Of a stretch of DNA of 64,000 bases, positions 16,701-64,000 are shown piece after piece (the first letter of the stretch is position 1; every line of letters starts with the position of its first letter). Below the pieces are notes generated by a model. That model saw only the letters and a program-made list of their open reading frames with translations, ran no database searches and was not told the origin of the DNA. The translations under genes and the position numbers were made by a program. Location of the stretch: the NCBI GenBank assembly GCA_023898465.1, contig CP060223.1:96001-160000 (forward strand), in the 5' to 3' direction. Source of the DNA: Candidatus Nomurabacteria bacterium. GTDB lineage: Bacteria; Patescibacteriota; Patescibacteriia; HK-STAS-PATE-3.

Positions 16701-16712
16701 TCTCAAAAAAGT

Positions 16713-49058: not shown

Positions 49059-50402
49059 TTAGAAGTAGTTGAACGGATTGGTGCGTCGGCCGTTTACCCA
49101 GACTTCGAAGTGCAGGTGGTCGCCAGTACACCAGCCAGTACAACCGGAAATGCCGATAGTTTCGCCCTTGCTCACTGTTTGGCCTACGCTGACATAGGAC
49201 TTGCTTAGGTGAGCATAGAGGGTTTGCAGACCATTACCGTGGTCGATGATGATGTTATTGCCGTAGCCAGTTCCCCAGTTTGTGCGGACAACTCGTCCTC
49301 CATCTGATGCATAAATAGGTGAGGTGCGAGTATGAATATCAATACCGGTGTGACGTGCGCTATAACCCTGGTTAATTTTGTGACTGACCGTAGGCCAGAA
49401 CATTCCAGCACCAACGTTGGTGGCGGAGGCTGGTCGAGGACCACTGCTGACGCTGCTGGCAACTTGAGTGGAACTAACAGTTGTTTTAGGCGCTGGAGGA
49501 GGTTCAATTTTACCGCCCGGAATGATGAGTTGCTGCCCAACTTCAATAGCACTTGCATCAGCCAATTGGTTAAACTCTAGGATATCATCAGCGTTTGCTT
49601 CGTACTTCTTTGCGAGCGATGCAATGGTATCGCCGCTTTGTACTGAGTGGACAACACCGCTGACCGGAGGGATTTTTAATGTTTGACCAGGCTTAATGAC
49701 TGAGGAGTCGTTAAGGTTATTTGCCCAGAGGAGCGTGTTGGTGCTGACAGAAAATTGTGAGGCAATGATACTGATAGTATCGCCACCCTCAACGACATAT
49801 TCACGGACCTGGTCGCGGGGCACTCCTAATTCGCTGGTGCTTGGGATATTTGCCTTGGCTAGCGCTTCACCACTTCCTTCATTTCGGGCGATAGCTAAGA
49901 GCTGACGCTGCTGTTCAGATTCCTCGGTATTTCGATGATAGCGGTCAATTGCTCCGTCGCGGGTGATTGAGCTCAGTGCAGAATTCGGCGCCACCACCGC
50001 GTACTCGACATATTCTTCGTCAGTTTCTTGATTATGCAGAATAGTATTTACTAAAGTGCCACTGGCAAAGTCTTCAATAGCGGCTTCTCGAGCTAATACA
50101 TTATTAGTAAGTACTCCGAAGATTACGACAATAACGACCACGTGAAGCAAATAGCGCGTGGTGATTGGATACCACCATGAGGACTTACTTCCGGCAAGAG
50201 ATTTCTCAAGCCGTTGGGTTACACGTAAATATTGTCGATAGATTGGAACTGCCAATACCATAAAGGTGGCATTCCAAAACCACGCCAGAGGTTTAAAAAT
50301 TCCGTAGATAACAATAAGCACGACCAACTTCCAAAGATAGCGGACGAGATGGTAGACGCCAAAAGCTAATTTGAGTACCTGCGATTTGAGCTGTAAACTC
50401 AC
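49059..50402 (-). CDS. LysM-domain M23 peptidase (murein endopeptidase-like)
   Basis: The start is GTG. An N-terminal TM region is followed by two LysM repeats (YVVEGGDTISIIASQFSV..., HSVQSGDTIASLAKKYEA...). The M23 motifs HTGIDI and GDHLHFEV are present. Confidence 0.9.
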   Translation of the reverse strand: MSLQLKSQVLKLAFGVYHLVRYLWKLVVLIVIYGIFKPLAWFWNATFMVLAVPIYRQYLRVTQRLEKSLAGSKSSWWYPITTRYLLHVVVIVVIFGVLTNNVLAREAAIEDFASGTLVNTILHNQETDEEYVEYAVVAPNSALSSITRDGAIDRYHRNTEESEQQRQLLAIARNEGSGEALAKANIPSTSELGVPRDQVREYVVEGGDTISIIASQFSVSTNTLLWANNLNDSSVIKPGQTLKIPPVSGVVHSVQSGDTIASLAKKYEANADDILEFNQLADASAIEVGQQLIIPGGKIEPPPAPKTTVSSTQVASSVSSGPRPASATNVGAGMFWPTVSHKINQGYSARHTGIDIHTRTSPIYASDGGRVVRTNWGTGYGNNIIIDHGNGLQTLYAHLSKSYVSVGQTVSKGETIGISGCTGWCTGDHLHFEVWVNGRRTNPFNYF

Positions 50403-50613: not shown

Positions 50614-53600
50614 ATGAGTATGAAAAACGTTGTACCGGAAGGGGAATACAACCCAGCAAGTATTGAAGCAAAATGGCAGGAGCACTGGAACAAAAAACCA
50701 GATCAGGCTAAGGATTTTGCGCATGATCCAAAGCGCTATCTTCTCATTGAATTTCCTTACCCCTCAGGTGATGGACTGCATGTGGGGCATGTGCGAAGCT
50801 ATGCCGCTCTCGATGTGTTGGCGCGTTATTCTCGCTTAAAGGGTTTTAATGTGCTTTACCCCATCGGCTGGGATGCTTTTGGTTTACCCACCGAGAATTA
50901 TGCGATTAAGACTGGCGTACACCCACGTGTTGCGACTGATAAGAATATTGCCACCTTTCGCCGCCAGCTTAAGGCGCTAGGCCTTTCATTTGATTGGTCT
51001 CGAGAAGTGGATACAACAGATCCAAAATACTATCGATGGACACAGTGGATTTTTTTGCAGTTCTATAAGGCAGGCTTAGCCTATCAGGCAGAGATTCCTA
51101 TTAACTGGTGTCCAAAAGATAAAATCGGTTTGGCCAATGAAGAAGTGGTTGATGGCAAATGCGAACGCTGCGGCACTGAAGTAACGCGTAAAATGCAAAA
51201 GCAGTGGATGTTAAAAATCACCGCCTATGCAGATCGCTTACTACGTGATCTCGATACAGTTGAGTACGTTGAAAAAATTAAAACACAGCAGAAAAACTGG
51301 ATAGGTAAGAGCGAGGGTGCTGAAATATCTTTTCAAATAGCTAGTAAGGAGTCGCAAAAACCTCGCTTCGTACTTCTCCATGGTTTTCAGGGCTCAGCTA
51401 AAGGTAACTTTTTCCCATGGCTAAAAGATGAGTTGGTCGCAAAGGGCTATGAGGTGGAAGTACCTGAATTACCAAACAGCGCTCATCCGACTGAAGAGGA
51501 ACAGGTAAGTTATGTACTTGAACATTGTCGCTTTGATGAAAACACCATCGTGTTTGGTCATTCGCTTGGTACAGTCGTGGCCATGAAGGTTATAGAAAAG
51601 CTTCCCACAAAAGTAGCTGGCTTGGTTATGGCCGGTGGATTTACCCAGGCTGATTTTTCTGATCACGATCGACCATTCCGCGATACCTTTACATGGAATT
51701 TTGATTTCCAGGCGATTCGAGATAAAGCAGGTTTTATAAAAGTGCTACATGACGTGCATGATGATGCCGTGCCCGAGGGAGCTGGAGAGGCTTTAGCAAA
51801 AGCGCTCGAAGTGCCGTGCTACAAGGTGACCGCAAATGAAGAGCATTTCTGCGCAAAGCAAGAGCCTTATCTATTAGCGCATCTCATGCCAAACACACTT
51901 TTGGTTGGTACGCAAAATCAGGCAAAGGTGGAAATGCTTCGACGAGCATTGGCCCCTTACCCAAATATTCACCTCATCAGTTTAAGTGATATTGGTAAGG
52001 TCGATGATCAGGCTTTAGTAGAGGGCGATGACTTTCGTGCTAATGCAAAAATGAAAGCAGATTTTTATCACCGAGCCACAGGTTTACCAACCATATCGAC
52101 GGATCATATTCTTTGGATAGAGAAATGGCCTGAGGATAATGGCTTCATTACGCATATTCGCAAATTAGCAAATCCGAAATCTGGACGAGCAACAGATGAA
52201 GAACTAGCAGAATGGATAAAAAAATTTATCGATAAAAATGGTGAGTCGCGTACAGCCTTTCATTATGCTATTGGTTATGCCGATGAGAAGGGAGTGCAGG
52301 GCTTTGTGAGTATTCAGCGCGAATACATGTTGAAGGCTAATCCGGCTAAAGCACGATGGGAAGGCTATGCGGTCGGTGCATTTTTGCGTGACCCCGTGAC
52401 TGATGCGTATCGAGAAGAGATGCCCGCAGAGATCGCTTTTGATCGCTTCTTCGCCACAGTGCGCAATGAAATTGTGCCGCAGGTTTTCGATATGAGCACC
52501 TTGACGGTCTTTACCACACGACCCGATACCATCTTCGGTGTCACGTATATGGTTGTAGCCCCTGAACATGAACTCCTTGCCAAGTATCAATCACACATTA
52601 CAAATTGGGATGAAGTTCAAAAGTATGTGCGAGAGGCCGCCAAGAAATCCGATATGGAGCGGACCGAGTTGGCCAAAGAAAAAAGTGGCGTTGAGCTCAA
52701 AGGTATTCAGGCAGTAAATCCGGCAAATGGTGAAGTAATCCCGATTTGGGTAGCTGACTATGTGCTGAGTTCTTATGGCACCGGAGCGATAATGGCTGTG
52801 CCGGCGCATGATCAGCGAGACAATGAGTTTGCAAAAAAGTACTCCCTGCAAATAAGAGAAGTAGTAAGAGGTTTTAATCGTGTAGGAGAGAAAAAAGATA
52901 TTGTATATTCTGGCGAGGGGGTCCTAGTAAATTCTCAGGACTTTGATGGAGAAAAAAGCGAAGACGCAAAAAAGAACATTGTAAGGTGGTTAGAAGAAAA
53001 AGGACTCGGTCATTCAGCAGTCAATTTTAAACTTCGCGACTGGGTATTTTCACGTCAGCACTACTGGGGCGAGCCGATTCCGATTATTCATTGTCCTAAG
53101 TGCGGAGCTGTTCCAGTGCCGGAGAAAGACCTACCAGTGGAATTGCCTCATGTAGAAAAATACCAACCCACTAATACTGGGGCTTCACCATTAGCTGCGA
53201 TCGAGGATTGGGTGCAGGTGAAATGTCCGAAGTGTAAGGGCGAAGCGAGTCGAGAAACCGACACCATGCCGAATTGGGCCGGGAGCTCGTGGTATTTCCT
53301 GCGCTATTCGGATCCGCACAATAGTAAAGCCTTTGCTGATAAGAAAAAGCTAGAGTATTGGCTGCCGGTGGATATTTACAATGGTGGCAATGAGCACACC
53401 ACCCTCCATTTACTCTACTCGCGTTTCTGGCATAAGTTTTTATTTGATCAGGGCTTGGTACCAACTCCAGAACCATACCAGCATCGTCATTCGCATGGGA
53501 TTGTGTTAGCTGAGGATAATCGCAAGATGTCAAAGAGTTGGGGGAACGTGGTCAATCCGGATGATTATGTGCAGGAGTACGGTGCAGATAGCGTGCGCAT

Positions 53601-54198
53601 GTACGAGTTATTTATGGGACCATTTGAGGATATGATTCCGTGGTCAACCAAGGGTATCGTGGGTGTGCATCGCTTCTTAAATCGTGTGTGGGAACTTTAT
53701 CGTAAAGTTACAGAAGAGACGGCCCAAGTAACAGAAGAGAGGGACATTCACAAAGCTGTGAAAAAGGTTGGGGAAGACCTCGAGGCTTTTCGTTTCAACA
53801 CCGCGGTGAGCACTTTGATGGAATATTTTAATCACTTCCGTGATGAAGTGCAGCAGGGTAGGCTCGATAAAGAAGCAGCAGAAAAGTTTCTCGTGATCCT
53901 TTTCCCATTTGCGCCGCACCTTGCCTCAGAGCTCTGGGAGCAGTTAGGAAAGAAGAGCGATATTCGCGAACAATCATGGCCAAACTTTGATCCAAACGCT
54001 TTACAAGCGGAGACCGTCACGATCGGTGTGCAGATTAATGGCAAAGTGCGCGCCTCCATAAGCCTTTCACCAGAAGCAAGCGAAGCAGAAGCGCTGGAGC
54101 TAGCCTTAGCCGAAGAAAATATTCAACGCTATCTTCAAAAGGGACAGCCCAAGAAGGTTATTTATCGTGCAGGAAAAATTCTCAATCTGATCGCCTGA
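50614..54198 (+). CDS. leuS: Leucyl-tRNA synthetase with ~387-aa two-domain insertion before CP1
   Basis: HIGH (HVGH), KMSKS, the Zn-knuckle CPKD...CERCG, the CP1 start TTRPDT and AHDQRDNEFA are all present. At 1194 aa it is far longer than E. coli LeuRS (860 aa). Confidence 0.95.
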   Translation: MSMKNVVPEGEYNPASIEAKWQEHWNKKPDQAKDFAHDPKRYLLIEFPYPSGDGLHVGHVRSYAALDVLARYSRLKGFNVLYPIGWDAFGLPTENYAIKTGVHPRVATDKNIATFRRQLKALGLSFDWSREVDTTDPKYYRWTQWIFLQFYKAGLAYQAEIPINWCPKDKIGLANEEVVDGKCERCGTEVTRKMQKQWMLKITAYADRLLRDLDTVEYVEKIKTQQKNWIGKSEGAEISFQIASKESQKPRFVLLHGFQGSAKGNFFPWLKDELVAKGYEVEVPELPNSAHPTEEEQVSYVLEHCRFDENTIVFGHSLGTVVAMKVIEKLPTKVAGLVMAGGFTQADFSDHDRPFRDTFTWNFDFQAIRDKAGFIKVLHDVHDDAVPEGAGEALAKALEVPCYKVTANEEHFCAKQEPYLLAHLMPNTLLVGTQNQAKVEMLRRALAPYPNIHLISLSDIGKVDDQALVEGDDFRANAKMKADFYHRATGLPTISTDHILWIEKWPEDNGFITHIRKLANPKSGRATDEELAEWIKKFIDKNGESRTAFHYAIGYADEKGVQGFVSIQREYMLKANPAKARWEGYAVGAFLRDPVTDAYREEMPAEIAFDRFFATVRNEIVPQVFDMSTLTVFTTRPDTIFGVTYMVVAPEHELLAKYQSHITNWDEVQKYVREAAKKSDMERTELAKEKSGVELKGIQAVNPANGEVIPIWVADYVLSSYGTGAIMAVPAHDQRDNEFAKKYSLQIREVVRGFNRVGEKKDIVYSGEGVLVNSQDFDGEKSEDAKKNIVRWLEEKGLGHSAVNFKLRDWVFSRQHYWGEPIPIIHCPKCGAVPVPEKDLPVELPHVEKYQPTNTGASPLAAIEDWVQVKCPKCKGEASRETDTMPNWAGSSWYFLRYSDPHNSKAFADKKKLEYWLPVDIYNGGNEHTTLHLLYSRFWHKFLFDQGLVPTPEPYQHRHSHGIVLAEDNRKMSKSWGNVVNPDDYVQEYGADSVRMYELFMGPFEDMIPWSTKGIVGVHRFLNRVWELYRKVTEETAQVTEERDIHKAVKKVGEDLEAFRFNTAVSTLMEYFNHFRDEVQQGRLDKEAAEKFLVILFPFAPHLASELWEQLGKKSDIREQSWPNFDPNALQAETVTIGVQINGKVRASISLSPEASEAEALELALAEENIQRYLQKGQPKKVIYRAGKILNLIA

Positions 54199-55999: not shown

Positions 56000-56823
56000 G
56001 CGTGTATTCGCCAACTCAGTTGCAAGCCCTTTGCCGTCAATTTGGCATACGGCCTCAGCGACGTCGCGGGCAAAACTTTGTTATTGATCAACATTTGATT
56101 GATCGTATGCTGCAAGCGGCTGAAATAGACTCCGAGCATCCGATATTAGAAATTGGGCCGGGTTTTGGCGTTTTAACAGAAGCATTAGTGCAAAAAGCGT
56201 CTCAGGTAATAGCAATTGAACTAGAAAAAAAGCTAGCTGAACATTTGCAAAAGCGTTTTTCTTCCCAAAAAAATTTGACCATAGTGCAGAATGATTTTCG
56301 TTTTACTGATCTTGCTGCGCTGGGTCTCCAAGAGGCGGCATATGATGTAGTGGCTAATTTGCCGTATCAAATAACCTCCTTAGTTATTCGGCGTTTATGT
56401 AGCACGCATCCTCGTCCACGTCGTATCACCCTGCTCGTGCAAAAAGAAGTAGCTGAAAGGATTATTGCGCCATCAGGAGAGGCAAGCACGTTAAGTATTG
56501 CGGTGGCTTTTTATGCTCAGGCAAAGCTGGTCAGAACCGTTTCTCCGGCAGCTTTTTGGCCGCGGCCTCAGGTGAAATCAGCTATTCTGCGTCTTGATTT
56601 GCATAGTACCATTCCAAATGTTGACGAAAAACGCTTTTTCTCCATTGTGCGTTCGGCCTTTCAAGGTAAGCGCAAAAAATTGCGCAATTCACTTGCTTCA
56701 GTACTCGGAGTTGAACCAATAAAAGTCGAGGAAATATTGAGAAAACAGGGTATAAATCCAGAAGTACGAGCTCAAGATCTCTCACTTGAGAACTGGTTGA
56801 CAATCGCACAAGAAAAGCTTTGA
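55996..56823 (+). CDS. rsmA: 16S rRNA (adenine1518/1519-N6)-dimethyltransferase
   Basis: RRGQNFV, the SAM motif EIGPGFGVLT, and ANLPYQITS are present. Confidence 0.9.
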   Translation: MSVYSPTQLQALCRQFGIRPQRRRGQNFVIDQHLIDRMLQAAEIDSEHPILEIGPGFGVLTEALVQKASQVIAIELEKKLAEHLQKRFSSQKNLTIVQNDFRFTDLAALGLQEAAYDVVANLPYQITSLVIRRLCSTHPRPRRITLLVQKEVAERIIAPSGEASTLSIAVAFYAQAKLVRTVSPAAFWPRPQVKSAILRLDLHSTIPNVDEKRFFSIVRSAFQGKRKKLRNSLASVLGVEPIKVEEILRKQGINPEVRAQDLSLENWLTIAQEKL

Positions 56824-56839
56824 CGTAGCGGGACGAAAG

Positions 56840-56848
56840 TGCTATAAT
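56840..56848 (+). promoter_or_regulatory. Extended -10 promoter element (TGCTATAAT)
   Basis: A TGn plus perfect TATAAT lies 17 nt after the rsmA stop and about 40 nt upstream of the next ORF. Confidence 0.5.
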
Positions 56849-56886
56849 GATGGGGATTTCAAAAGGATTTTTTTCACTACACGATT

Positions 56887-57759
56887 TTGGCTTTTCAGGG
56901 GGAACAACCAGGGGAGAATGACAATACAAAGCTTTTCAATAATGCCCCAGAGCAAGGTAATCAGGTTCCGCCTGAGCAAAGTGGCTCGCGGGGCTTTTTT
57001 ATTGCGTTAATTTCCTTTGGCGCAGTTGGGCTTTTGCTCGGAATTGTGAGCTTGGCAAAGAATATTCAGTCACCTTTTGTACCAAATGCCAACCTCATTG
57101 CGGTGCAGCAGGACACCAATCAAGAAAACATCTCTGATTTGCAGCAAAGAGACACGGATGGAGATGGGTTAAGTGATTACGAAGAACTTTATCAATACAA
57201 CACTAGCCCGTATTTAGCTGATTCTGACTCGGATACCATTGATGATAAGAAAGAAATCGAGAGTGGAAACGATCCGAATTGTCCAAGTGGCCAGGATTGT
57301 ACCGGATTAGGCGTAAATACAAACACGAGTACAGTTGACGATGCATTGGGGCTTACTAATAGCTCCACCAATACATCCGCGACAAATACCAGTACGAGCA
57401 CGAGTGCGGTTGATATGGCACAGTTGCGTGAAGTGTTAAAGGCCTCGGGTGCTCCTGCCTACGTCGTGGATTCAACCGATGATGCTACTTTGCTTGAGCT
57501 TTACAACGAATTAGTAGCTGAGCAGGGTGGTGACTCGCTTGATACCAACTCGACAGATACAAATGCGAGTAACACGTCGACTGTTGATGACGCTACCACC
57601 TTACAACTTCTGCAAAGCTTATCAGCCAGCGAGATACGCGCACTTCTCATTCAAAGTGGCGTTGATCAATCATTAATCGATCAAGTAGACGATTCTGAGC
57701 TGCAGCAAATATTCCTTGATGCAGTGCAATCCGAGTTTTCCTCTGACTCCTCATCATGA
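56887..57759 (+). CDS. Membrane-anchored protein with thrombospondin-type-3-like Ca-binding repeats and S/T/N-rich tail
   Basis: The start is TTG (uncertain). The TM segment is FFIALISFGAVGLLLGIVSL. DTDGDGLSDYEE and DSDSDTIDDKKE are TSP3-like aspartate repeats. Confidence 0.6.
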   Translation: MAFQGEQPGENDNTKLFNNAPEQGNQVPPEQSGSRGFFIALISFGAVGLLLGIVSLAKNIQSPFVPNANLIAVQQDTNQENISDLQQRDTDGDGLSDYEELYQYNTSPYLADSDSDTIDDKKEIESGNDPNCPSGQDCTGLGVNTNTSTVDDALGLTNSSTNTSATNTSTSTSAVDMAQLREVLKASGAPAYVVDSTDDATLLELYNELVAEQGGDSLDTNSTDTNASNTSTVDDATTLQLLQSLSASEIRALLIQSGVDQSLIDQVDDSELQQIFLDAVQSEFSSDSSS

Positions 57760-60700
57760 TTCTGCCTTCTGAGCAATCAAAGAAGAAAAAGAGCGTGCGA
57801 GCAATCGCTAGTTTTCTGTTGCCAATGGTTTTACTGGTGACAGTGTTGGGAGTTGCCTTACCACGAGAAAGCAAAGCTCAAATTGGCGCAGTTGGCAGTT
57901 TGGCGGGATTTATTTGGAAGGAAGTAAAAGATTCAGCCCGTTATATTGCCACGCAGGCAAAAGCTGCTTTTGAAAAAGCTCAGGATACCAGTTACGCCAT
58001 TGCGTTTAAGAATAGCTTACGAGTTTTCTTAGGTAAGGTGGCAGAAGATACCGCCGTGTGGGTTTCCAGTGCCGGGACGGGCCAAAAGCCGCTCTTCATC
58101 ACTGATCCGCATTATTGGCGAAATTTGACCGATGCGGCTGGCGGCGACTTTTTGGATTCTATTTCCAAAGATGTTTTTGGAGTAAGTCTGTGTGAGCCGC
58201 TCGATGTGCAAAAGAAGGTTCAACTAGAAATTGCCACCCGCAATCTTATCAATCCTTTAAACGTGTGTGAGAACAGTTGTAACACGACATACAACAATAC
58301 AGCCGAGCAGCTAGGGAACATGAAATCGTATCTTGATCTTCAAGAACGTAAATCACAAGCAAGTCCGAATGCGCTTACCTATTGTCCTGATGAAGAGTTT
58401 CTGCTTGGCATTAGCACTCCAGACAATCCGAATGATCCCTCAACCTATGGCACACAGATGTCAGAGCTTGAGTGTTTTCAACTCATCTCAAACAACTACA
58501 ATCGTCGAAGGCAGCAGGCGACTTCAGAATTGACCTCATGTTTGCAAGATTGTAATCGCGGATCTCGTAAGTCATCCTGTACCGCAACCGCAGTATGGGG
58601 AAACATTCGAGACATTCAGGATTTCTCAGTAGAATTTCAAACTTACTTTAAGCCTGAGCAAAATGATATTGGTCAGATTCTTACCCTTTTCGGCTTGACT
58701 CAGCAAGCAGAAGAAGAGGCGAAGATTGCCGAAGAGACAATTCAGAATAGTAAGTTAGGCGCGGTAACTTCAACGCTTCGTACAGACATCCTTACCCCGG
58801 CCAGCTTGGTAGAAGAAAAAGCAGCCCAGCCTATTCGAGAGTCTTCAACAATTGATACTACGCAAACCGGATCCTTACTCGCTGATGTGGGTAATATTTT
58901 TGCGAACACCTTAACGCAGCGTTTAATGGAGAGATTCTTCCGCAGTAAGTGTGGATTAAATCCAAGCGCATGCGAGGGCCCAGGCCAAACAGACTCCAAA
59001 CTCGGCTCCTTACTCTTTAGCACACGGACTCCAAGCGGTCTGGCAGCTGCGCGACTCCAGTTCGCCAGCTTAGCTCGAATCGATTACACAACAGGAGATC
59101 CAGGTCGTTCACAAATAGCAGTATCAAATCAATTAGAAGCGCAAGGTATAATTAATTCCGGTTTCCGACAGGCTATTGATGAGCACATGACAGTGCGAGA
59201 AGCGTTGAACGCCGGCTTGCTAAATGCCAGCGCAACCTTTGGCTACGACGAAACAGACAATGAAGCGGAAAATGGAATTCCATACCGCTCCATCCTTTAT
59301 CTGCGTAAATATCGAGTCGTCCCTGTTGGCTGGGAGTTGGCCGCTGTGTATATCGGTTCAGATGCAGATAGACAGTCACATGGCTTAGGCGAACTCGTCG
59401 ACCTCTATGATTGGTGTGGACAGGACGCTGCACATGGTTTACCAAATCCAGATGATCCAGAGACACCATTGCCTTCACCATTCTGCGGATTGGTTGACCC
59501 GAGTTGGGTATTAAAAGCTCCTGACACGTACTGTCGACGTCAGGGCGCTGGTGATGAAATTATCCAACGTCGCTATGTGTGTGACACTGATACCAATGGC
59601 GATGGTCGAATTAATTGTAGCCTGAGCGATTTGGGTGGAGGGGATATTGGCTCCTGGATTATTTCACGAAATCAAGATACCTGCGTTGATGAGCCTAGCT
59701 GTGTGGCCGAAGATAGTGATGGGAATTGTCTCGCCTATGGATATTGCTATGAAGAAAAGCCGATTTGGCGTTTCGGCGGTGAAACCTGTAACGGGTACTA
59801 TGCTTCTTGTCGATCTTATACAAATTCAAGTGGCATTCAACTCGCTTACTTAAAAGATACCCTTGATGAGGGCGATTGTAATCCAGAGAATGCCGGTTGT
59901 CGCGCGTACTGCAGCGATGGCGAATACAATGCCGTAAATCAGACCTGGAGTTGTCGCTCTGATTCAGGTGATACTATATACTTTGATCGGGACGCGAGCT
60001 CATGTCCAGATGGTGCGGTTGGATGTACTGAATTAATTCGCACCGAAGCTGGATCAAACGTTTTAGCAAACGCTGGATTTGAATACTATACAGGTACCAG
60101 CGATGACGGCACTCGAGATACTTTTGGCTTCTGCAGTAATAATGGCGCTGCCTGTCAAACCAATGGAGACTGTGGACTCGGGGCAAGTTGTGAAGGTTGG
60201 AAAACTGATAACGGTGCCGTCCAACTACAAGCAGTCAGCGATGATGTGAGTGGCGTTGGTTCACCAGACACCATTGCAGTGCAAATGAGCGCCGGGGTTG
60301 GCAAGCTCATTCACGAAGCTGATGCCTATCAAGATTTGAGCGGCATGCAGATGACTTTCTCATACTACGCAAAAGCGCTTGGAGCAAGTTGTAGCGGCAC
60401 CTTTGGCGTACAAAGCGCTGATGCAATTTATGTGCCAGCCGCTGATGAAGAGGGTAGCGCTGAGTACACCGATCTCTGGCAGCAATATGCTGGAGTCTTC
60501 ACCTTCCCAGAATCAGCTTATACTAAGAGTAAGGTGCAGGCGTACATAAATAATCCGGGCTGCGGTATTTTGGTTGACTCAGCTAAATTAGAATTTAGTG
60601 CTGCGCAAACAGTGTACTCGGATTATCAGACGGTGAATGAAATTTCCATGCAAGTTCCACAGACCACTCTGCTGTCCAACGGAGACTTCAGCTTAGATGA

Positions 60701-63700
60701 TGGAACTGACTTCTTTAGCTACCCAGCCCCAGTTGATGGAGATAACTCTACCGCAGATGACAATATTCCAGACGGCTGGACACCACGAGCAGTAGGAAGT
60801 ATCGCAATTGATCGCACGCAAGGCCACTTTGATGATGAATCACTTCGGATTGACGCTAGTGGAGTGCGTAGCTATGCGGGCCAGCTTGTTCCAGTTGAAC
60901 AAGGTAAAACCTATGAAGTGAGCGGTTGGGTAAAGAGTCAATTGACTCCAAGTGGTGGTGATACTCCATTTGGCGCACTCATGACCGAATGTGTGTACAG
61001 TGCCAGCCATCCAAATGCTTACGAAACATTTAATCCTTCGGCTGATGAGCCAAGCGAGTGTCTCTTGTCTAACTTCGAAACCTACATTCGTCCTTCAGTT
61101 GAAGACGGTAACAATTATTATGTAACAACTGGGACGAGCGACTGGACTTATCTCCGCTATACCGTGACCGCAAATAATCCTGATATCGGCTTTATGCGAG
61201 TTGCTTGTACAAATGTGTCTCAGGATACAGGAGGCATTCAAGCTGATGGTTCTGGTACGGTTTGGTGTGATGATGTGAAGGTGGTGGAAACTCCACTAAG
61301 TTGTGACCGCGAAGAAGTTGGTTGTCAAAAATATCGACCAGTTGGGGCTGGTGATGCCGTAAATGGCGTAGTGCGTTCCAGCGACATTTGTCCGCTTGAT
61401 CAGGTTGGTTGCCGCCAATTCCGTGAAATGCCGATTGAACATGTGCCTCAGCGTGATGGCATTGATCCAGTCTACATTATTGAAAGTTCGGGAAACCAAT
61501 GTACAGCTGCCAGTGTGGGTTGTGAGGAATACACTAACCTTGACCTGGGTGAGTCAGGCGGAGAAGCCTTAGCGTACTTCTCACAAATTAAACAGTGTGT
61601 GAAGCCGACAGATCCAAACGCAGGTAACTTCTATACTTGGGAAGGTAGCGAACAAGCTGGTTATAACCTTCGTGCATACAAACTTCTCACGAGTAATGTT
61701 GATCAAGGTCCATGTACAAATCTTTCGGTCGGTACAACTACCAGCGATCCAATCTGTGAAGACGATAGCAATCCAATCGCTGAGTGTAGTGTGGATGACC
61801 TAGGCGTGAACCCTGATTGTACTGAATACTTTAACGATTCCGGCGAAGTCTTTTATCGCTTGAAGAGTCGAACAGTCACCGTCTCCAATGATTGTCACCC
61901 ATTCCGTAATTCAATTGACGCAGCTGCAGGTGAGGATAGTGTGTATCACGTGATTCCGAGCGAAGCAGTCACTTGTTCCGCCGCTGCAGCTGGTTGTCGT
62001 CAGTACAAGGGAACAACTGCAGATAGTAGCCGTACCGTCTACAATGAGAATTTTGAAAACGGCTCGGTGAACGGTTGGAGTGGGGGCGTGACCTATTCAA
62101 ATGAGTCAGTTAACTTAGGCGGTCACTCCATGCGCACGAGCGACGACACTCTTTTCTCAATCGATCTCTCAAACACCATTACTAACGGCCGAACCTACAG
62201 TATTCAGTTCTCCTATAAGGCTCGGCAGACCGGTGACCTAGCCTTTCAAATTCGCGATGAGCTAGGCGAGAGCTTTGGCAGCACGGTAGCTATTCGGCCG
62301 GGTGAAGAATGGGCGCAGTATGAGCTCGGACCAGTCTTTGTGAATTCAACCGGCGACCCGACCGAGTTTATCTTAGAATTTACCACTCCTTCAAGCCTAC
62401 CAGGCGGGTGGATCGATAATATTAAATTACGCGAATCAGTTGACAGTATTTATCGTATCAAGGGTACGACCTCGTCCTGTGATCCAGCAAATGCCGGATG
62501 TCGCCTCTATGTTGATAGCGCAAATAGCCCGGTGGCAGTTACCTCATTTAGTCATCTCTGCTCTGATCGGGCAGTCGGCTGTGAGGCAATGACAGTGACG
62601 CAAAATTCAGATTATCCTTTTGTGCAGGATGTACAAGATAATCCTGATAAGTTTATTCAAGGTGATCTGACTCTCGCGTATGTAAACTCCTCAAGCGCTT
62701 ATTGTCGGGCAGAGTACCAGGGCTGTACTGAGTATGGCGTTGCTTCCTATGATCAAAATAATGAAGTACTTGCATGGTCAAGCACGAATTTGATTAATGA
62801 TCCAGACACTTATCCGGTAGCACTTTGTCATCCGAGTCAGAATCGCTGTGAAGAGTACACCGAGAGTATTAGTGGCAGTAAGGCCTATTTCCGCGATCCA
62901 GGCAATCAAACCTGTGAATATCGTGAATCAGCTGCCTATGCTGGATTATTAGTAGACGGTTGGTTTATCACGGGCACAAATGAGCCATGTCCATCACAGT
63001 CGTTGACTTGCTTCGGCGGCACTCTGGCTGGTGAACCGTGTATGACGTCGGATCAGCAGCAAGCTTGTCTAAACAATAATGGCTACTGTATCGCCTATCC
63101 ATTAGACGGAGAAGTGAAAGAGGTAAATCTTATCTGTGGTTCAACCTGTTCAACTGGTGGATCAGTTGGTCAGGCTTGTGTGAATAATGGTCAATGCTCG
63201 AATGTGTGTGTAGGCGGCACGAATGCTGGTGCATCTTGTCTACGCAATGATGATTGTGGTGGAGGTGGTACCTGTGAGATAGGGCAGTGCGGTGATGGTG
63301 GTGTGCGGCCTTTCTGTGATGGTCGTCAAACCGGATCAACTCGACAAGATCAGGAAAATTGTTTGGCTGATGATGGGCTCTGTACGGCCATTCCTCAGGT
63401 AGGTCAGCCAGGGCGAACCTGTCAGGGTGGTCCAAACGACGGCCTGTCTTGTGCCAATGATGCATACTGTTCCAGTGTTTGTGCTGGTGGTACAAATGCT
63501 GATAACGCTTGCTTTAACGATAGCGATTGTCCAGGGAGTACCTGTGGCGTGGAAGCGAGTTGTGCAAATTACTGGGTTGGCACCTGCGAGCCGGCCGCTG
63601 CGGGATGTACGGAATTCCGTGACCCTCTTGATCCGCCGCAACAAGGAGCCTATCCAAATGGTTGTCAGGTGAATTGTACGCTGGCCACTGACCGTAATGA

Positions 63701-63896
63701 TAATCTCATTGAGGTAGATGCTGAGTGTCGACCTGGCTCAACAGCAGCGTCACAACCTGGCTGTCAGCCTTACTACATCTTGCGGCAAAGTATTACTTCG
63801 CAAGTTTCCGAATGTAATTCAACTATTGATTTCACTACCGGGTGTCAGCCATTCTATGACACCGCTAATCCAAATGCTAATTTTATAGGGGGTTAA
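57756..63896 (+). CDS. Giant (2046 aa) Cys-rich surface protein with three CBM/jelly-roll-like modules
   Basis: The ATG overlaps the upstream stop (ATGA). The N-terminal TM segment is AIASFLLPMVLLVTVLGVAL. There are at least 12 copies of a GC-x-x-[YF] motif. The jelly-roll-like modules lie at about 60055-60600, 60669-61292 and 62040-62440. A duplicated C-terminal Cys module lies at about 63195-63275 and 63468-63546. Confidence 0.85.
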   Translation: MILPSEQSKKKKSVRAIASFLLPMVLLVTVLGVALPRESKAQIGAVGSLAGFIWKEVKDSARYIATQAKAAFEKAQDTSYAIAFKNSLRVFLGKVAEDTAVWVSSAGTGQKPLFITDPHYWRNLTDAAGGDFLDSISKDVFGVSLCEPLDVQKKVQLEIATRNLINPLNVCENSCNTTYNNTAEQLGNMKSYLDLQERKSQASPNALTYCPDEEFLLGISTPDNPNDPSTYGTQMSELECFQLISNNYNRRRQQATSELTSCLQDCNRGSRKSSCTATAVWGNIRDIQDFSVEFQTYFKPEQNDIGQILTLFGLTQQAEEEAKIAEETIQNSKLGAVTSTLRTDILTPASLVEEKAAQPIRESSTIDTTQTGSLLADVGNIFANTLTQRLMERFFRSKCGLNPSACEGPGQTDSKLGSLLFSTRTPSGLAAARLQFASLARIDYTTGDPGRSQIAVSNQLEAQGIINSGFRQAIDEHMTVREALNAGLLNASATFGYDETDNEAENGIPYRSILYLRKYRVVPVGWELAAVYIGSDADRQSHGLGELVDLYDWCGQDAAHGLPNPDDPETPLPSPFCGLVDPSWVLKAPDTYCRRQGAGDEIIQRRYVCDTDTNGDGRINCSLSDLGGGDIGSWIISRNQDTCVDEPSCVAEDSDGNCLAYGYCYEEKPIWRFGGETCNGYYASCRSYTNSSGIQLAYLKDTLDEGDCNPENAGCRAYCSDGEYNAVNQTWSCRSDSGDTIYFDRDASSCPDGAVGCTELIRTEAGSNVLANAGFEYYTGTSDDGTRDTFGFCSNNGAACQTNGDCGLGASCEGWKTDNGAVQLQAVSDDVSGVGSPDTIAVQMSAGVGKLIHEADAYQDLSGMQMTFSYYAKALGASCSGTFGVQSADAIYVPAADEEGSAEYTDLWQQYAGVFTFPESAYTKSKVQAYINNPGCGILVDSAKLEFSAAQTVYSDYQTVNEISMQVPQTTLLSNGDFSLDDGTDFFSYPAPVDGDNSTADDNIPDGWTPRAVGSIAIDRTQGHFDDESLRIDASGVRSYAGQLVPVEQGKTYEVSGWVKSQLTPSGGDTPFGALMTECVYSASHPNAYETFNPSADEPSECLLSNFETYIRPSVEDGNNYYVTTGTSDWTYLRYTVTANNPDIGFMRVACTNVSQDTGGIQADGSGTVWCDDVKVVETPLSCDREEVGCQKYRPVGAGDAVNGVVRSSDICPLDQVGCRQFREMPIEHVPQRDGIDPVYIIESSGNQCTAASVGCEEYTNLDLGESGGEALAYFSQIKQCVKPTDPNAGNFYTWEGSEQAGYNLRAYKLLTSNVDQGPCTNLSVGTTTSDPICEDDSNPIAECSVDDLGVNPDCTEYFNDSGEVFYRLKSRTVTVSNDCHPFRNSIDAAAGEDSVYHVIPSEAVTCSAAAAGCRQYKGTTADSSRTVYNENFENGSVNGWSGGVTYSNESVNLGGHSMRTSDDTLFSIDLSNTITNGRTYSIQFSYKARQTGDLAFQIRDELGESFGSTVAIRPGEEWAQYELGPVFVNSTGDPTEFILEFTTPSSLPGGWIDNIKLRESVDSIYRIKGTTSSCDPANAGCRLYVDSANSPVAVTSFSHLCSDRAVGCEAMTVTQNSDYPFVQDVQDNPDKFIQGDLTLAYVNSSSAYCRAEYQGCTEYGVASYDQNNEVLAWSSTNLINDPDTYPVALCHPSQNRCEEYTESISGSKAYFRDPGNQTCEYRESAAYAGLLVDGWFITGTNEPCPSQSLTCFGGTLAGEPCMTSDQQQACLNNNGYCIAYPLDGEVKEVNLICGSTCSTGGSVGQACVNNGQCSNVCVGGTNAGASCLRNDDCGGGGTCEIGQCGDGGVRPFCDGRQTGSTRQDQENCLADDGLCTAIPQVGQPGRTCQGGPNDGLSCANDAYCSSVCAGGTNADNACFNDSDCPGSTCGVEASCANYWVGTCEPAAAGCTEFRDPLDPPQQGAYPNGCQVNCTLATDRNDNLIEVDAECRPGSTAASQPGCQPYYILRQSITSQVSECNSTIDFTTGCQPFYDTANPNANFIGG

Positions 63897-63897
63897 T

Positions 63898-64000
63898 ATG
63901 CATAATGCGCAGAAAGGAATTTTTACTCGATTCTCGATAAGCTTGGTTGCGGTTGCTACCCTCGCATTATTTGGAATTATAGGGTGGAGTGCGCCTACGC
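63898..64000 (+). CDS. Membrane-anchored protein, 3'-partial
   Basis: The ATG lies 1 nt after the giant gene's stop. MHNAQKGIFTRFSISLVAVATLALFGIIGW is an N-terminal TM segment. The ORF runs off the window. Confidence 0.45.
   Translation, partial: MHNAQKGIFTRFSISLVAVATLALFGIIGWSAPT

What the first reader, a model, noticed from the sequence alone, without database searches (positions are those of the whole stretch)
56840..64000. Surface operon: TSP3-repeat anchor protein, 2046-aa Cys-rich giant protein with CBM-like modules, and a further anchored protein
**Operon layout.** An extended -10 promoter (TGCTATAAT, 56840-56848) precedes three translationally coupled genes. The stop/start junctions are ATGA at 57756 and a 1-nt gap at 63897.

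**Giant protein features:**
- An N-terminal TM anchor.
- A ~550-aa largely helical region.
- A Cys-rich body with at least a dozen copies of a short GC-x-x-[YF] motif: AAGCRQYKG, NAGCRLYVD, EVGCQKYRP, QVGCRQFRE, SVGCEEYTN, YQGCTEYGV, AAGCTEFRD, QPGCQPYYI, TTGCQPFYD, NAGCRAYCS, QNRCEEYTE and NPDCTEYFN.
- Three jelly-roll/CBM-like modules opening with NAGFEYY, SNGDFSLDDG and NFENGSVNGWSGG.
- A duplicated C-terminal module, CSNVCVGGTNAGASCLRNDDCGGGGTC / CSSVCAGGTNADNACFNDSDCPGSTC.

**Upstream protein.** It has Ca-binding thrombospondin-type-3-like repeats.

**Interpretation.** This looks like a large disulfide-stabilised adhesin or glycan-binding apparatus. I do not recognise the repeat type.
Basis: partly seen in the sequence, partly recalled or inferred. 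Interest (0 to 1): 0.6.

Follow-up and report, generated by a model that had tools for sequence, protein, structure and literature searches.

The report
Giant secreted adhesin heading Patescibacterial T4SS
The flagged genes are the first genes of a roughly 32-kb type IV secretion system operon in an ultra-small (Patescibacteria/CPR) bacterium, encoding a calcium-binding membrane protein and a 2046-residue secreted protein with conserved cysteine pairs and lectin-like modules that probably makes the machine's contact with the host cell; I found no published description of this component.

Summary
A near-consensus promoter (56820-56848) precedes a 290-aa TSP3-repeat membrane protein. It is translationally coupled to an intact 2046-aa, 93-Cys protein ("G1"), which is followed by a third gene that runs off the window.

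Three things change the picture.

1. This is not a three-gene surface operon. It is the 5' end of a 17-gene, co-directional type IV secretion system (T4SS) operon. The remaining genes, read from the same organism's contig, are two more giant secreted proteins, a VirB6-like protein, PrgI/VirB3, a TraC-like protein, VirB4, two VirB2-pilin-domain proteins, an SLT hydrolase, a DsbA-like oxidoreductase and RadA.
2. The "TM anchor" of G1 is probably a cleavable Sec signal peptide. The P-x-x-A-x-A motif is conserved across homologues.
3. The repeat is a C-x6-C unit ending in GCxx[YF]. The scaffold pairs are invariant in the family. These units flank three CBM4/22-like jelly rolls, which evolve fastest.

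G1's N-terminal domain defines about 990 sequence clusters of giant proteins. Every named one is from Patescibacteria, and all nine fetched loci with readable flanks lie between the TSP3 gene and virB6.

Best reading: G1 is a disulfide-stabilised, glycan-binding host-contact module of the Patescibacterial T4SS. This rests on gene context, not experiment. It is a new variant of a known kind.

The parts
56820..56848 (+). Sigma-70-type promoter: -35 TTGACG (overlapping the ksgA stop), 17-nt spacer, TG-extended -10 TATAAT.
   Evidence: 11 of 12 consensus positions, the only such site in 54-64 kb. Sequence read.
56887..57759 (+). TSP3-repeat membrane protein (290 aa, TTG start). It has one TM helix at aa 38-56 (nt 56998-57054). 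Two Ca-binding DxDxDGxxDxxE loops lie at aa 89-123 (nt 57151-57255), followed by NCPSGQDCTG. An N/T/S-rich linker and two helical repeats complete the protein. It is the proposed membrane tether for G1.
   Evidence: TSP3_bac, E 1.8e-5, 24.9 bits. (MtsD thrombospondin-3 model, E 6.8e-6). (motifs invariant in two homologues). (single TM). (weak EF-hand loop matches). It sits directly upstream of G1 in L003, L005, L043 and L044, and upstream on the same strand within the fetched flank in seven further loci.
57756..63896 (+). G1: a 2046-aa secreted giant protein with 93 Cys. Its start overlaps the TSP3 gene's stop (ATGA).
   Evidence: The identical protein appears in two read-set assemblies and an NCBI MAG.
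57756..57878 (+). G1 signal peptide (aa 1-41): KKKK n-region, 20-aa h-region, then PRESKA|Q.
   Evidence: a P-x-x-A-x-A|[QF] motif follows the hydrophobic segment in most of 45 homologues. A41 is invariant in A5. No signal-peptide predictor was run.
57879..59465 (+). G1 N-terminal 'head' domain (aa 42-570). It is mostly helical and is the family-defining part. Its conserved motifs are AFKNxLRVFLGKxAEDTAxW, SAGTGQKPLFxTDPxY and YRxxPVGWELAA. No known fold or family was found for it.
   Evidence: helices; pLDDT mostly 40-90. (conservation). (988 clusters at E<=1e-3). (no PDB match outside the jelly rolls).
59466..60050 (+). Cys-rich scaffold 1 (aa 571-765), holding 16 Cys, 13 of them conserved in at least 90% of 31 family members. 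C-x6-C units lie at 678/685, 708/715 and 750/757.
   Evidence: Mean identity to distant members is 49%. Predicted with low confidence.
60051..60650 (+). Jelly roll 1 (aa 766-965), CBM4-like. It opens with NAGFEYY.
60651..61295 (+). Jelly roll 2 (aa 966-1180). It opens with SNGDFSLDDG. It is a lineage-specific insertion found only in the closest relatives.
   Evidence: no alignment in most homologues. (gapped in 95% of distant members). (beta-sandwich strands).
61296..62030 (+). Cys-rich scaffold 2 (aa 1181-1425). It is a beta-rich domain with invariant C-x6-C units at 1183/1190, 1212/1219, 1249/1256 and 1407/1414.
   Evidence: pLDDT above 90; a short helical turn at each C-x6-C between strands.. 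Mean identity to distant members is 47%.
62031..62450 (+). Jelly roll 3 (aa 1426-1565), CBM_4_9/CBM22-like. It opens with NFENGSVNGWSGG.
   Evidence: PF02018, E 3.1e-13, aa 1427-1547. (4xup/4xuo, E 1.7e-7, target TM-score 0.70)..
62451..63035 (+). Cys-rich scaffold 3 (aa 1566-1760), with invariant C-x6-C units at 1575/1582, 1602/1609, 1650/1657 and 1691/1698.
63036..63584 (+). Gly/Cys-rich variable region (aa 1761-1943). It contains the duplicated module CxGGxNxxxxCxNDxxC (1814-1840 and 1905-1930).
   Evidence: strings located; these Cys are conserved in only 3-35% of members. (pLDDT below 50 in places).
63585..63893 (+). Conserved C-terminal Cys domain (aa 1944-2046). All 8 of its Cys are invariant, and the protein ends ...NPNANFIGG. 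It has no TM segment and no LPXTG motif.
63898..64000 (+). 5' end of G2. The full protein is 1523 aa in the same organism, with a Sec signal and Big_7, fn3 and Pur_ac_phosph_N Ig-like domains. It starts 1 nt after the G1 stop.
49059..50402 (-). LysM x2 + Peptidase_M23 protein. It is possibly associated with the system as a cell-wall remodelling enzyme, and it is syntenic with the operon in distant relatives. Its membership is not established.
   Evidence: M23, E 3.3e-31; LysM, E 3.5e-25. (same position in L003 and L005). PMC12102498 reports M23/LysM domains in Patescibacterial VirB1-type proteins.

Best explanation
The TSP3 protein and G1 are the extracellular host-contact module of a Patescibacterial type IV secretion system (T4SS) related to the conjugation machinery of single-membrane (monoderm) bacteria.

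**Shown**
- Both genes sit behind a single strong promoter at the head of a 17-gene co-directional array. Most neighbouring genes are separated by 17 nt or less or overlap; the two largest gaps are 65 and 166 nt.
- In the same organism the array continues: G2, G3, VirB6-like, three unassigned proteins, PrgI/VirB3, TraC-like, VirB4, a ~190-aa TM protein (a relative's equivalent gives a weak VirB8 hit), a VirB2-pilin-domain protein, a beta-propeller-like protein, a membrane-anchored DsbA-like oxidoreductase, a pilin-domain+SLT hydrolase, and RadA.
- The TSP3 gene, then G1, then virB6 order persists in relatives whose G1 is only 29-38% identical, including lineages where G1 is the only giant protein.

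**Inferred mechanism**
1. G1 is exported by Sec and its signal peptide is cleaved.
2. Outside the membrane, the operon's own DsbA oxidises its roughly 26 conserved cysteine pairs. Many of these are C-x6-C units, each modelled as a short turn between two strands in the confidently predicted scaffold region.
3. The result would be a stiff scaffold from which two or three CBM4/22-type jelly rolls project.
4. The conserved N-terminal head docks G1 to the machine, either through the TSP3 protein's Ca-binding ectodomain or through the large VirB6-like protein.
5. The fast-evolving jelly rolls bind glycans on the host cell envelope. This holds the secretion channel against the host, as mating-pair-stabilising adhesins do in conjugation.
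For: **Operon membership in the same organism**
- L001 and L045 are overlapping stretches of one contig.
- Their Pfam assignments are:

| Protein | Pfam family | E-value |
|---|---|---|
| VirB6-like | TrbL | 4.2e-5 (23.8 bits; cut-off 25.9) |
| pilin-domain protein | T4SS_pilin | 2.8e-10 |
| DsbA-like | Thioredoxin_4 | 2e-29 |
| DsbA-like | DSBA | 2e-17 |
| pilin-domain + hydrolase | SLT | 3.4e-15 |

- The organism's VirB4 (P0213) is 87% identical to that of L007. The L007 protein scores E 1.4e-30 against P-loop_TraG.

**Conservation of order**
- A G1 homologue lies upstream of the VirB6-like gene on the same strand in 16 of 19 species-level loci that have at least 8 kb of upstream sequence.
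- Compact versions exist in L043 and L044, where G1 abuts or nearly abuts virB6.
- The operon tail with DsbA is conserved in 4 of 4 G1-bearing genomes checked.

**Export**
- The signal-peptidase motif is conserved.
- There is no other TM segment.

**Disulfides**
- 52 of 93 Cys are conserved in at least 90% of members.
- All C-x6-C pairs in the scaffold regions are invariant.

**Lectin modules**
- Searches support the CBM fold.
- The jelly rolls are the least conserved parts: 27-29% identity against 47-49% for the scaffolds, and jelly roll 2 is absent from 95% of distant members. This is as expected for specificity determinants.

**Literature**
- The Patescibacterial T4SS is essential for epibiotic growth in one cultured species, and its role is unknown (PMC10633639, PMC11665869).
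- KsgA is reported as frequent near virB4, and 'no adhesins ... were detected' (PMC12102498).
- F-like T4SSs offer a precedent: they pair Cys-rich contact proteins (TraN, 20 conserved Cys) with operon-encoded thioredoxin-fold enzymes (PMC7555446).
Against: - Everything functional rests on gene context and fold; there is no experiment.
- Conserved synteny here is not in itself proof of linkage. The unrelated housekeeping genes LeuRS-MFS-Sua5-KsgA are conserved in the same order just upstream.
- The head domain has no recognisable fold and was predicted with low confidence, so the docking step is a guess.
- Glycan-binding residues of the jelly rolls were not examined.
- No G1-like giant is listed in the gene table of the one experimentally studied Patescibacterial T4SS cluster, that of Southlakia (largest protein 1113 aa; no sequence comparison was run).
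- No G1 homologue was detected in 3 of 19 loci, so it is not universal.
- G1 has no evident means of staying on the cell.
Confidence: 0.55

Rival explanations
1. G1 (with G2, G3 and the TSP3 protein) is a general surface coat or adhesin of the cell, comparable to an S-layer or an attachment protein. On this view it merely sits next to the T4SS genes in a part of the chromosome whose gene order is frozen, and it works independently of secretion.
For: - Housekeeping genes upstream (LeuRS, MFS, Sua5, KsgA) are just as syntenic.
- Large Cys-rich extracellular proteins have been noted in other CPR genomes without a T4SS link (PMC4736985).
- The window holds another Ig-domain surface protein elsewhere, at 42660-44894.
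- No G1-like giant is listed in the gene table of the Southlakia T4SS cluster.
Against: - A single strong promoter precedes the TSP3 gene, and nothing comparable lies inside 56.8-64 kb.
- Overlaps of 4 nt and gaps of 1 nt continue through to virB6 and beyond.
- All nine fetched G1-family loci with readable flanks sit at this position, whereas a generic adhesin would be expected to move or duplicate.
- A DsbA lies inside the same array in 4 of 4 genomes.
Confidence: 0.2
2. G1 is an enzyme. Its conserved N-terminal head would be a new glycan- or peptidoglycan-cleaving domain, targeted by the CBM modules. It would open the host's (or the cell's own) wall for the T4SS, a VirB1-like role.
For: - CBM4/9/22 modules are usually appended to glycoside hydrolases; all the top structural matches are such appendages.
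- The head domain carries near-invariant acidic or polar motifs (AEDTA, TDP, GWELAA).
Against: - No hydrolase family matched in Pfam, NCBIfam or PDB.
- The operon already encodes an SLT, or in a relative an M15-type hydrolase, fused to a pilin domain.
- A LysM-M23 peptidase lies nearby.
- The head is predicted to be a helical bundle of low confidence, with no recognisable catalytic fold.
Confidence: 0.08
3. G1 is a secreted toxin or effector. It would be released to act on the host cell, its jelly rolls serving as receptor-binding domains as in Cry, Vip3 and binary toxins.
For: - G1 has a signal peptide and no anchor.
Against: - Those matches cover only the generic jelly-roll fold shared with CBMs, at 8-13% identity and with target TM-scores of 0.10-0.25 for the whole toxins.
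- No pore-forming or enzymatic toxin domain was detected.
- Export by Sec makes G1 an unlikely T4SS substrate.
- Core conservation and a fixed position at the head of the machine's operon are atypical of effectors, which vary and scatter.
Confidence: 0.07
4. G1 is a greatly enlarged homologue of VirB5/TrbJ, the minor pilin and tip adhesin of Gram-negative T4SSs. It would sit at the tip of a filament built from the operon's VirB2-pilin-domain proteins.
For: - In some family members the mature N-terminus reads AQ[FW]xV[ST]DP..L.QL.
- N-terminal fragments gave weak hits to three models:

| Model | E-value(s) |
|---|---|
| DUF4141 | 5.6e-5, 1.1e-3 |
| TrbJ | 0.0098, 0.048 |
| VirB5 | 0.064 |

- The operon does encode T4SS_pilin domains.
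Against: - Profile-profile comparison of the 46-sequence G1 N-terminal alignment with seven VirB5 proteins taken from plasmid records gave probability below 1% and E 0.09-0.62.
- The window's own protein gives no such hit.
- All hits are below the models' cut-offs and cover a signal peptide plus a few residues.
Confidence: 0.05

Closest known systems
Patescibacterial T4SS (MPF-FATA-related), described in Southlakia epibionticum (Wang et al. 2023, PMC10633639) and surveyed by Quinonero-Coronel et al. 2025 (PMC12102498)
   Same: - The core is the same: VirB6-like, PrgI/VirB3, TraC/TrsD-like, VirB4, VirB8-like, VirB2-type pilin domains and cell-wall hydrolases.
- It is chromosomal, with no relaxase seen in the fetched stretch.
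- KsgA lies next to it, and RadA/RecG lie at its end, as the survey reports for several classes.
   Different: - The published descriptions list no TSP3 protein, no giant Cys-rich CBM protein and no DsbA. The survey states that no adhesins were detected, and its supplements held as text do not contain TSP3 or CBM_4_9.
- The Southlakia cluster has six small pilins and no protein over 1113 aa in its gene table.
- Here the pilin domains sit in 377-396-aa proteins, and three giant secreted proteins head the operon.
F-like conjugative T4SS contact proteins TraN, TraU and TraH with the thioredoxin-fold proteins TrbB and TraF
   Same: - A T4SS operon encodes Cys-rich extracytoplasmic contact proteins and its own disulfide catalyst.
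- TraN has 20 conserved Cys and stabilises mating pairs (PMC7555446).
   Different: - There is no sequence relationship.
- TraN is a ~600-aa outer-membrane protein of diderm bacteria.
- G1 is a 2046-aa Sec-secreted protein of a monoderm-type cell, with CBM modules.
- The enzyme here is DsbA-like with a TM anchor, not DsbC-like.
PrgA/PrgB/PrgC surface proteins of the Enterococcus pCF10 T4SS (from my own knowledge of the system; PrgB is mentioned in PMC12102498)
   Same: Surface adhesin genes are placed at the 5' end of a monoderm T4SS operon, upstream of the channel genes prgH (VirB6), prgI (VirB3) and prgJ (VirB4).
   Different: - G1 has no LPXTG anchor, no PrgB-type polymer-adhesin or Ig domains, and no similarity detected to these proteins.
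- The PrgB profile found nothing in Patescibacteria.
CBM4/CBM9/CBM16/CBM22 carbohydrate-binding modules (Pfam PF02018)
   Same: - Jelly rolls 1 and 3 score above the Pfam cut-off.
- They superpose on CBM22, CBM4 and CBM16 structures.
   Different: - Here the modules are embedded in a non-enzymatic Cys-rich scaffold, not appended to a glycoside hydrolase.
- Ligand and binding residues are unknown.
Large Cys-rich extracellular proteins of Peribacteria (Anantharaman et al. 2016, PMC4736985)
   Same: - These are large proteins (average 1655 aa; most with a predicted signal peptide) in a CPR lineage, with 7% Cys.
- They were proposed to give rigidity or attachment.
   Different: - They are a different lineage and were described as a 14-gene cluster with no T4SS link.
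- Homology to G1 was not tested here.

Membership tests
Pfam CBM_4_9 (PF02018), carbohydrate-binding modules 4/9/16/22 | Sequence score above the curated gathering threshold. | tested here: met
   The window protein scores 50.7 bits against a cut-off of 25.9, E 3.1e-13, over two stretches. 18 of 21 family members match.
Pfam CBM_4_9 (PF02018), carbohydrate-binding modules 4/9/16/22 | Beta-jelly-roll fold superposable on solved CBMs. | tested here: met
Pfam CBM_4_9 (PF02018), carbohydrate-binding modules 4/9/16/22 | Binding of a carbohydrate ligand. | not testable with these tools
It needs a binding assay.
Bacterial TSP3 repeat (PF18884) | Sequence score above the gathering threshold. | tested here: inconclusive
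   The window protein scores 24.9 bits against a cut-off of 25. The homologue in L043 scores 25.8 bits. The NCBIfam MtsD thrombospondin-3 model gives E 6.8e-6.
Bacterial TSP3 repeat (PF18884) | Acidic Ca-binding loop DxDxDGxxDxxE, repeated. | tested here: met
   The loops are DTDGDGLSDYEE (aa 89-100) and DSDSDTIDDKKE (aa 112-123). The acidic positions are invariant in the three-sequence alignment A4. Calcium binding itself was not tested.
Type IV secretion system operon (monoderm MPF-FATA-like, Patescibacterial clade) | A VirB4 ATPase with VirB3/PrgI and VirB6/TrbL in the same co-directional cluster as the genes in question. | tested here: met
   The same contig as the window's genes carries TrbL (E 4.2e-5, 23.8 bits against a cut-off of 25.9), PrgI, a TraC-like protein and VirB4 (P0213). 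In the relative L007, PrgI gives E 1e-8 and P-loop_TraG gives E 1.4e-30.
Type IV secretion system operon (monoderm MPF-FATA-like, Patescibacterial clade) | G1 and the TSP3 protein are physical or functional parts of the machine. | not testable with these tools
   Only gene order supports it: 16 of 19 loci and compact clusters. It needs interaction or genetic data.
VirB5/TrbJ minor pilin family | Homology of the post-signal helical domain to VirB5/TrbJ. | tested here: not met
   hhalign of the G1 N-terminal alignment against seven VirB5 sequences gave probability below 1%, E 0.09-0.62. Only sub-threshold hits to the first ~40 residues appear in a few members.
PrgB-type Gram-positive T4SS adhesins | A C-terminal LPXTG sortase signal and polymer-adhesin or Ig-like domains. 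| tested here: not met
   The C-terminus reads ...NPNANFIGG, with no LPXTG and no TM segment. There are no Pfam hits other than CBM_4_9.
Myxococcus cysteine-rich repeat and other catalogued Cys-rich repeats | A match to a curated repeat model. | tested here: not met
   NCBIfam gave no family for G1 at E<=0.1. Pfam gave only CBM_4_9 at E<=1.
Sec-dependent secreted protein with a signal peptidase I site | An n-region, h-region and A-x-A cleavage motif, and no further TM segment. | tested here: met
   The sequence reads KKKK / 20 hydrophobic residues / PRESKA|Q. The motif recurs in most of 45 homologues. There is a single hydrophobic segment. This was judged by inspection; no dedicated predictor was available.

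The most novel reading that the evidence does not exclude
In a large part of the Patescibacteria, the T4SS that these cells need for life on a host is built around an undescribed extracellular assembly. That assembly is a Ca-binding membrane tether plus one to three giant secreted proteins whose conserved cysteines would be oxidised by the operon's own DsbA. The G1 family (about 990 sequence clusters) would be the host-recognition element of the assembly. Its swappable CBM modules would set host range, and its conserved head would plug into the VirB6/pilin-domain channel. This architecture has no counterpart in described T4SSs.
Probability: 0.25. Interest if true: 0.8.

Novelty: new variant of a known kind. 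Interest (0 to 1): 0.62.

Why it matters
Patescibacteria make up a large share of bacterial diversity, and the cultured ones live attached to host cells. In the one genetically tractable species the T4SS is essential, yet a 2024 perspective calls its role 'completely unknown' (PMC11665869). A 2025 genomic survey found no adhesins associated with it (PMC12102498).

This locus offers concrete candidates for the missing host-contact part in other lineages:
- a conserved family of giant secreted proteins with no Pfam model for its head or its repeat;
- a TSP3-repeat partner;
- an operon-encoded DsbA.

These give testable handles: recombinant CBM modules for glycan arrays, antibodies for tomography, and module phylogenies to predict hosts. 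They also add a Cys-stapled scaffold repeat (C-x6-C ending in GCxx[YF]) that could be turned into a family model for annotation.

Tried and rejected
1. **VirB5/TrbJ homology of the G1 N-terminus.** The lead came from sub-threshold DUF4141, TrbJ and VirB5 hits in three relatives. I fetched seven real VirB5 sequences from plasmid records. Profile-profile comparison gave probability below 1%, so I rejected it as homology.
2. **Sequence search of G1 and of a 31-member family profile against all PDB chains.** Only CBM4 and CBM22 modules matched.
4. **A 'pilin-less variant' of the T4SS.** I entertained this after seeing the relative L007, which ends just after VirB4. I withdrew it when the organism's own contig showed two T4SS_pilin-domain genes further downstream.
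5. **A protein search with the N-terminal 256 aa of the organism's VirB6-like protein**, meant to reach its contig. It returned only fragments. The VirB4 route worked instead.
6. **Shared repeats among G1, G2 and G3.** BLASTP found no meaningful similarity. The C-x6-C...GCxx[YF] unit is specific to G1: there are 0 C-x6-C copies in G2 and 8 in G3, none of which has the GCxx[YF] ending.
7. **Foreign origin of the locus.** GC content of G1 is 0.477 against 0.479 for the window, and the synteny is deep, so there is no sign of recent transfer.
8. **Rfam scan of the window.** It found only two tRNAs, far from the locus.

Full report
**What is in the window**

- ksgA ends at 56823.
- A sigma-70-type promoter, TTGACG-17 nt-TG-TATAAT, lies at 56820-56848. 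It matches 11 of 12 consensus positions and is the only site of that quality in 54-64 kb.
- A 290-aa protein is encoded at 56887-57759, with a TTG start.
- A 2046-aa protein, here called G1, is encoded at 57756-63896. Its ATG overlaps the preceding stop (ATGA).
- A third gene starts at 63898, one base after the G1 stop, and runs off the window.
- GC content of G1 (0.477) equals that of the window (0.479).
- The identical G1 protein is called in two independent read-set assemblies and in an NCBI metagenome-assembled genome named Candidatus Nomurabacteria, on a 1.08-Mb contig. The long ORF is therefore not an assembly accident.

**The features of the giant protein**

*Cysteines and the repeat.*
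- G1 has 93 Cys (4.5%).
- Strict GCxx[YFW] occurs 10 times, against 0.77 expected from shuffling the protein.
- The motif is better described as a C-x6-C unit. There are 17 copies, against 4.1 expected and a maximum of 11 in 2000 shuffles.
- In most of the conserved copies the context is Y-x-[IV]-x(4-6)-[ST]-C-x4-[AV]-G-C-x-x-[YF].

*Conservation.*
- In a 31-member family alignment at 35-61% identity, 52 of the 93 Cys are conserved in at least 90% of sequences.
- Every C-x6-C pair in the scaffold regions is invariant as a pair.

*Structure prediction.*
- AlphaFold models were built on a 46-sequence alignment.
- They predict aa 1181-1620 with pLDDT above 90. In that stretch each C-x6-C is a short helical turn between two strands.
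- The N-terminal 550 residues are predicted helical, but with low to moderate confidence.

*Jelly rolls.*
- Three beta-sandwich modules open at NAGFEYY (aa 772), SNGDFSLDDG (aa 974) and NFENGSVNGWSGG (aa 1432).
- They are CBM-like by sequence: Pfam CBM_4_9 scores 50.7 bits against a cut-off of 25.9. The family profile matches CBM4 and CBM22 chains at E about 6e-6.
- No Pfam or NCBIfam model covers the head domain or the Cys repeat.

*Signal peptide.*
- Most of the 45 homologues have a basic n-region and a ~20-residue hydrophobic stretch, followed by P-x-x-A-x-A just before [QF]. This is a signal peptidase I site.
- In the window protein the site reads PRESKA|QIG.
- G1 has no other hydrophobic segment and no LPXTG motif.
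- It is therefore most likely secreted and cleaved.

**The upstream protein**

- It has one TM helix at aa 38-56.
- Two acidic DxDxDGxxDxxE loops lie at aa 89-123, followed by NCPSGQDCTG.
- An N/T/S-rich linker and two similar helical segments follow.
- The loops are invariant in two homologues of 36-40% identity.
- Pfam TSP3_bac scores 24.9 bits against a cut-off of 25. A relative passes at 25.8 bits.
- An NCBIfam thrombospondin-3 model gives E 6.8e-6.
- A profile finds weak EF-hand loop matches in PDB.
- 'Ca-binding TSP3-like repeats' is therefore a fair description, although calcium binding itself was not tested.

**What the locus really is**

*The same organism's contig.* The contig that carries the identical G1 continues beyond the window (Pfam assignments). 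The genes that follow G1, in order, are:

| Gene product | Size (aa) | Assignment |
|---|---|---|
| G2 | 1523 | Sec signal; Big_7, fn3 and Pur_ac_phosph_N Ig-like domains |
| G3 | 1548 | Sec signal; 81 Cys |
| VirB6-like | 1072 | TrbL, E 4.2e-5 (23.8 bits, below the 25.9-bit cut-off) |
| three unassigned proteins | 467, 93, 445 | none |
| PrgI/VirB3 | 170 | PrgI |
| TraC-like | 233 | TraC-like |
| VirB4 | 659 | 87% identical to the L007 protein, which gives P-loop_TraG E 1.4e-30 |
| TM protein | 192 | none here; the equivalent in a relative gives a weak VirB8 hit, E 0.004 |
| pilin-domain protein | 377 | T4SS_pilin, E 2.8e-10 |
| beta-propeller-like | 416 | weak beta-propeller hits |
| DsbA-like, membrane-anchored | 211 | CEFC active site; Thioredoxin_4 E 2e-29; DSBA E 2e-17 |
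| pilin-domain + hydrolase | 396 | T4SS_pilin E 1.3e-8; SLT E 3.4e-15 |
| RadA | 447 | RadA-type domains |

- RecG follows on the opposite strand.
- Most gaps are 17 nt or less or are overlaps; the two largest are 65 and 166 nt.
- This type is described for Patescibacteria as related to monoderm conjugation systems (PMC12102498; PMC10633639).

*Agreement with the survey.* KsgA next to virB4, and RadA/RecG nearby, are both features that the survey reports.

**How firmly G1 belongs to it**

*Species-level loci.*
- Twenty-nine loci were fetched with the VirB6-like N-terminus and compared by tblastn.
- Of the 19 with at least 8 kb of upstream sequence, 16 have a G1 homologue upstream on the same strand.
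- p459b-PrgI-TraC-like-VirB4 follows downstream in nearly all loci that extend that far.

*Distant members.*
- In members whose G1 is only 29-31% identical, the cluster is compact.
- L043 reads KsgA, TSP3 protein, G1 (2691 aa), a 165-aa protein, TrbL_3, two proteins, PrgI, TraC-like, VirB4.
- L044 reads KsgA, two small proteins, TSP3 protein, G1 (3116 aa), then directly a 1374-aa protein in the virB6 position (no Pfam hit), one protein, PrgI, TraC-like, VirB4.
- So the TSP3 protein and G1 are recurrent core neighbours, whereas G2 and G3 are additions in some lineages.

*The DsbA tail.* The operon tail runs pilin-domain protein, beta-propeller-like protein, DsbA, a second pilin-domain protein fused to a cell-wall hydrolase (absent in one genome), RadA. 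It is conserved in all four G1-bearing genomes I checked.

*Size of the family.*
- A full HMMER scan with G1 aa 42-640 against 1.84 billion representative proteins found 988 clusters at E<=1e-3 and 293 at E<=1e-30.
- Most of the listed hits are proteins of 1600-4500 aa with the match near their N-terminus.
- Every one that carries a source name is from Patescibacteria.

*Which parts evolve fastest.*

| Region | Mean identity to distant members |
|---|---|
| Cys scaffolds 1 and 2 | 47-49% |
| Head domain | 39% |
| Jelly rolls 1 and 3 | 27-29% |
| Jelly roll 2 | absent from 95% of them |

**Most likely mechanism**

*Shown:*
- co-directional, tightly packed operon membership;
- a Sec signal;
- conserved cysteine pairs;
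- CBM folds;
- a DsbA encoded in the operon.

*Inferred:*
1. G1 is exported by Sec.
2. It is oxidised outside the membrane by the operon's DsbA into a stiff, multi-domain scaffold.
3. Its conserved head docks to the machine, through the TSP3 tether and/or the large VirB6-like protein.
4. Its fast-evolving lectin-like modules bind envelope glycans of the host cell, holding the channel against the host.

The closest functional precedent is the F-like T4SS, where Cys-rich contact proteins such as TraN (20 conserved Cys) are served by operon-encoded thioredoxin-fold proteins (PMC7555446). The placement of adhesin genes ahead of the channel genes recalls prgA-C of pCF10; that comparison rests on my own knowledge. 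I put 0.55 on this reading.

**Caveats and rivals**

*Caveats.*
- Synteny alone is weak evidence in these genomes. The unrelated LeuRS-MFS-Sua5-KsgA block just upstream is equally conserved.
- No G1-like giant is listed in the gene table of the experimentally studied Southlakia cluster. No sequence comparison was run against it.
- Three of 19 loci lack a detectable G1.
- The head domain's fold is unknown.

*Rivals.*
- An independent surface coat or adhesin: 0.2.
- A new CBM-targeted lytic enzyme: 0.08. The operon already has SLT or M15 hydrolases.
- A secreted toxin: 0.07. The similarity to Cry and Vip3 toxins covers only the generic jelly roll.
- An enlarged VirB5 homologue: 0.05. This was suggested by sub-threshold DUF4141, TrbJ and VirB5 hits in a few relatives, but was not supported by profile-profile comparison with seven real VirB5 sequences (probability below 1%).

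**Novelty**

The T4SS of Patescibacteria is known. What I could not find in the searchable literature is this module: the G1 family, its TSP3 partner and the operon DsbA.
- The 2025 survey says no adhesins were detected. Its main text does not mention giant or large proteins or carbohydrate binding, and its supplements held as text do not contain TSP3 or CBM_4_9.
- Further full-text searches found nothing.
- Large Cys-rich extracellular proteins have been remarked on in another CPR lineage, without a T4SS link (PMC4736985).

I therefore class the finding as a new variant of a known kind, of moderate-to-high interest. It supplies concrete candidates for how an essential machine of unknown function touches its host.

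Noticed in passing
window 50614-54198 (+); also L044:1-2883: The leucyl-tRNA synthetase here is 1194 aa, against 815-864 aa in syntenic relatives. It carries an inserted alpha/beta-hydrolase domain at aa ~250-450 (Abhydrolase_1, E 3.6e-9; Ser_hydrolase, E 2e-7), plus about 170 further unassigned residues before the editing domain. In another lineage the LeuRS at the same position carries a NUDIX domain instead.
   Followed up: partly
L045:14993-15628 (same organism, about 27 kb downstream of the window's end): A membrane-anchored DsbA-like protein (211 aa, CEFC active site) is encoded inside the T4SS operon. It is conserved there in 4 of 4 genomes checked. It is a more direct candidate for oxidising G1 and G3 than the window's thioredoxin and TrxB genes.
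   Followed up: yes
TrxB is clear (Pyr_redox_2, E 1.6e-43).
   Followed up: partly
window 49059-50402 (-): A LysM x2 + Peptidase_M23 protein keeps the same position, upstream of LeuRS, in relatives whose G1 is 31-38% identical. It may be a cell-wall enzyme working with the T4SS. The 2025 survey notes M23/LysM domains in VirB1-type proteins.
   Followed up: partly
L001:12565-17211 (G3) and L001:7986-12557 (G2): G3 is also very Cys-rich (81 Cys in 1548 aa) but uses different Cys modules and has no GCxx[YF] unit. G2 is built of Ig-like domains (Big_7, fn3, Pur_ac_phosph_N). Both have Sec signals. Neither is present in all lineages.
   Followed up: partly
L045:12598-13731 and 15625-16815; L047:16279-17493: The VirB2-type pilin domains of this T4SS sit in unusually large proteins (377-424 aa). 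One is fused to a cell-wall hydrolase, which is SLT in the window's organism and Peptidase_M15/VanY in a relative.
   Followed up: partly
relatives P0038, P0040, P0042 and P0043 (N-termini): In some G1-family members the mature N-terminus reads AQ[FW]xV[ST]DP..L.QL, like VirB5/TrbJ proteins. Fragments of P0038 and P0043 gave sub-threshold hits to DUF4141, TrbJ and VirB5 models; P0040 gave none and P0042 was not scanned. The window protein lacks this motif, and the domain-level comparison was negative.
   Followed up: yes
window 42660-44894 (+): A 744-aa protein has C-terminal Ig-like and CBM_48-like matches. It is another probable surface protein, unconnected to the operon.
   Followed up: no
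several G1-family members (P0037, P0043, P0039, P0041, P0059, P0084, P0136): Longer family members (2300-4000 aa) carry extra modules: Dockerin_1, PA14, and a vWA domain according to a source name. The C-terminal half of the family seems to be a platform for swapping binding modules.
   Followed up: no
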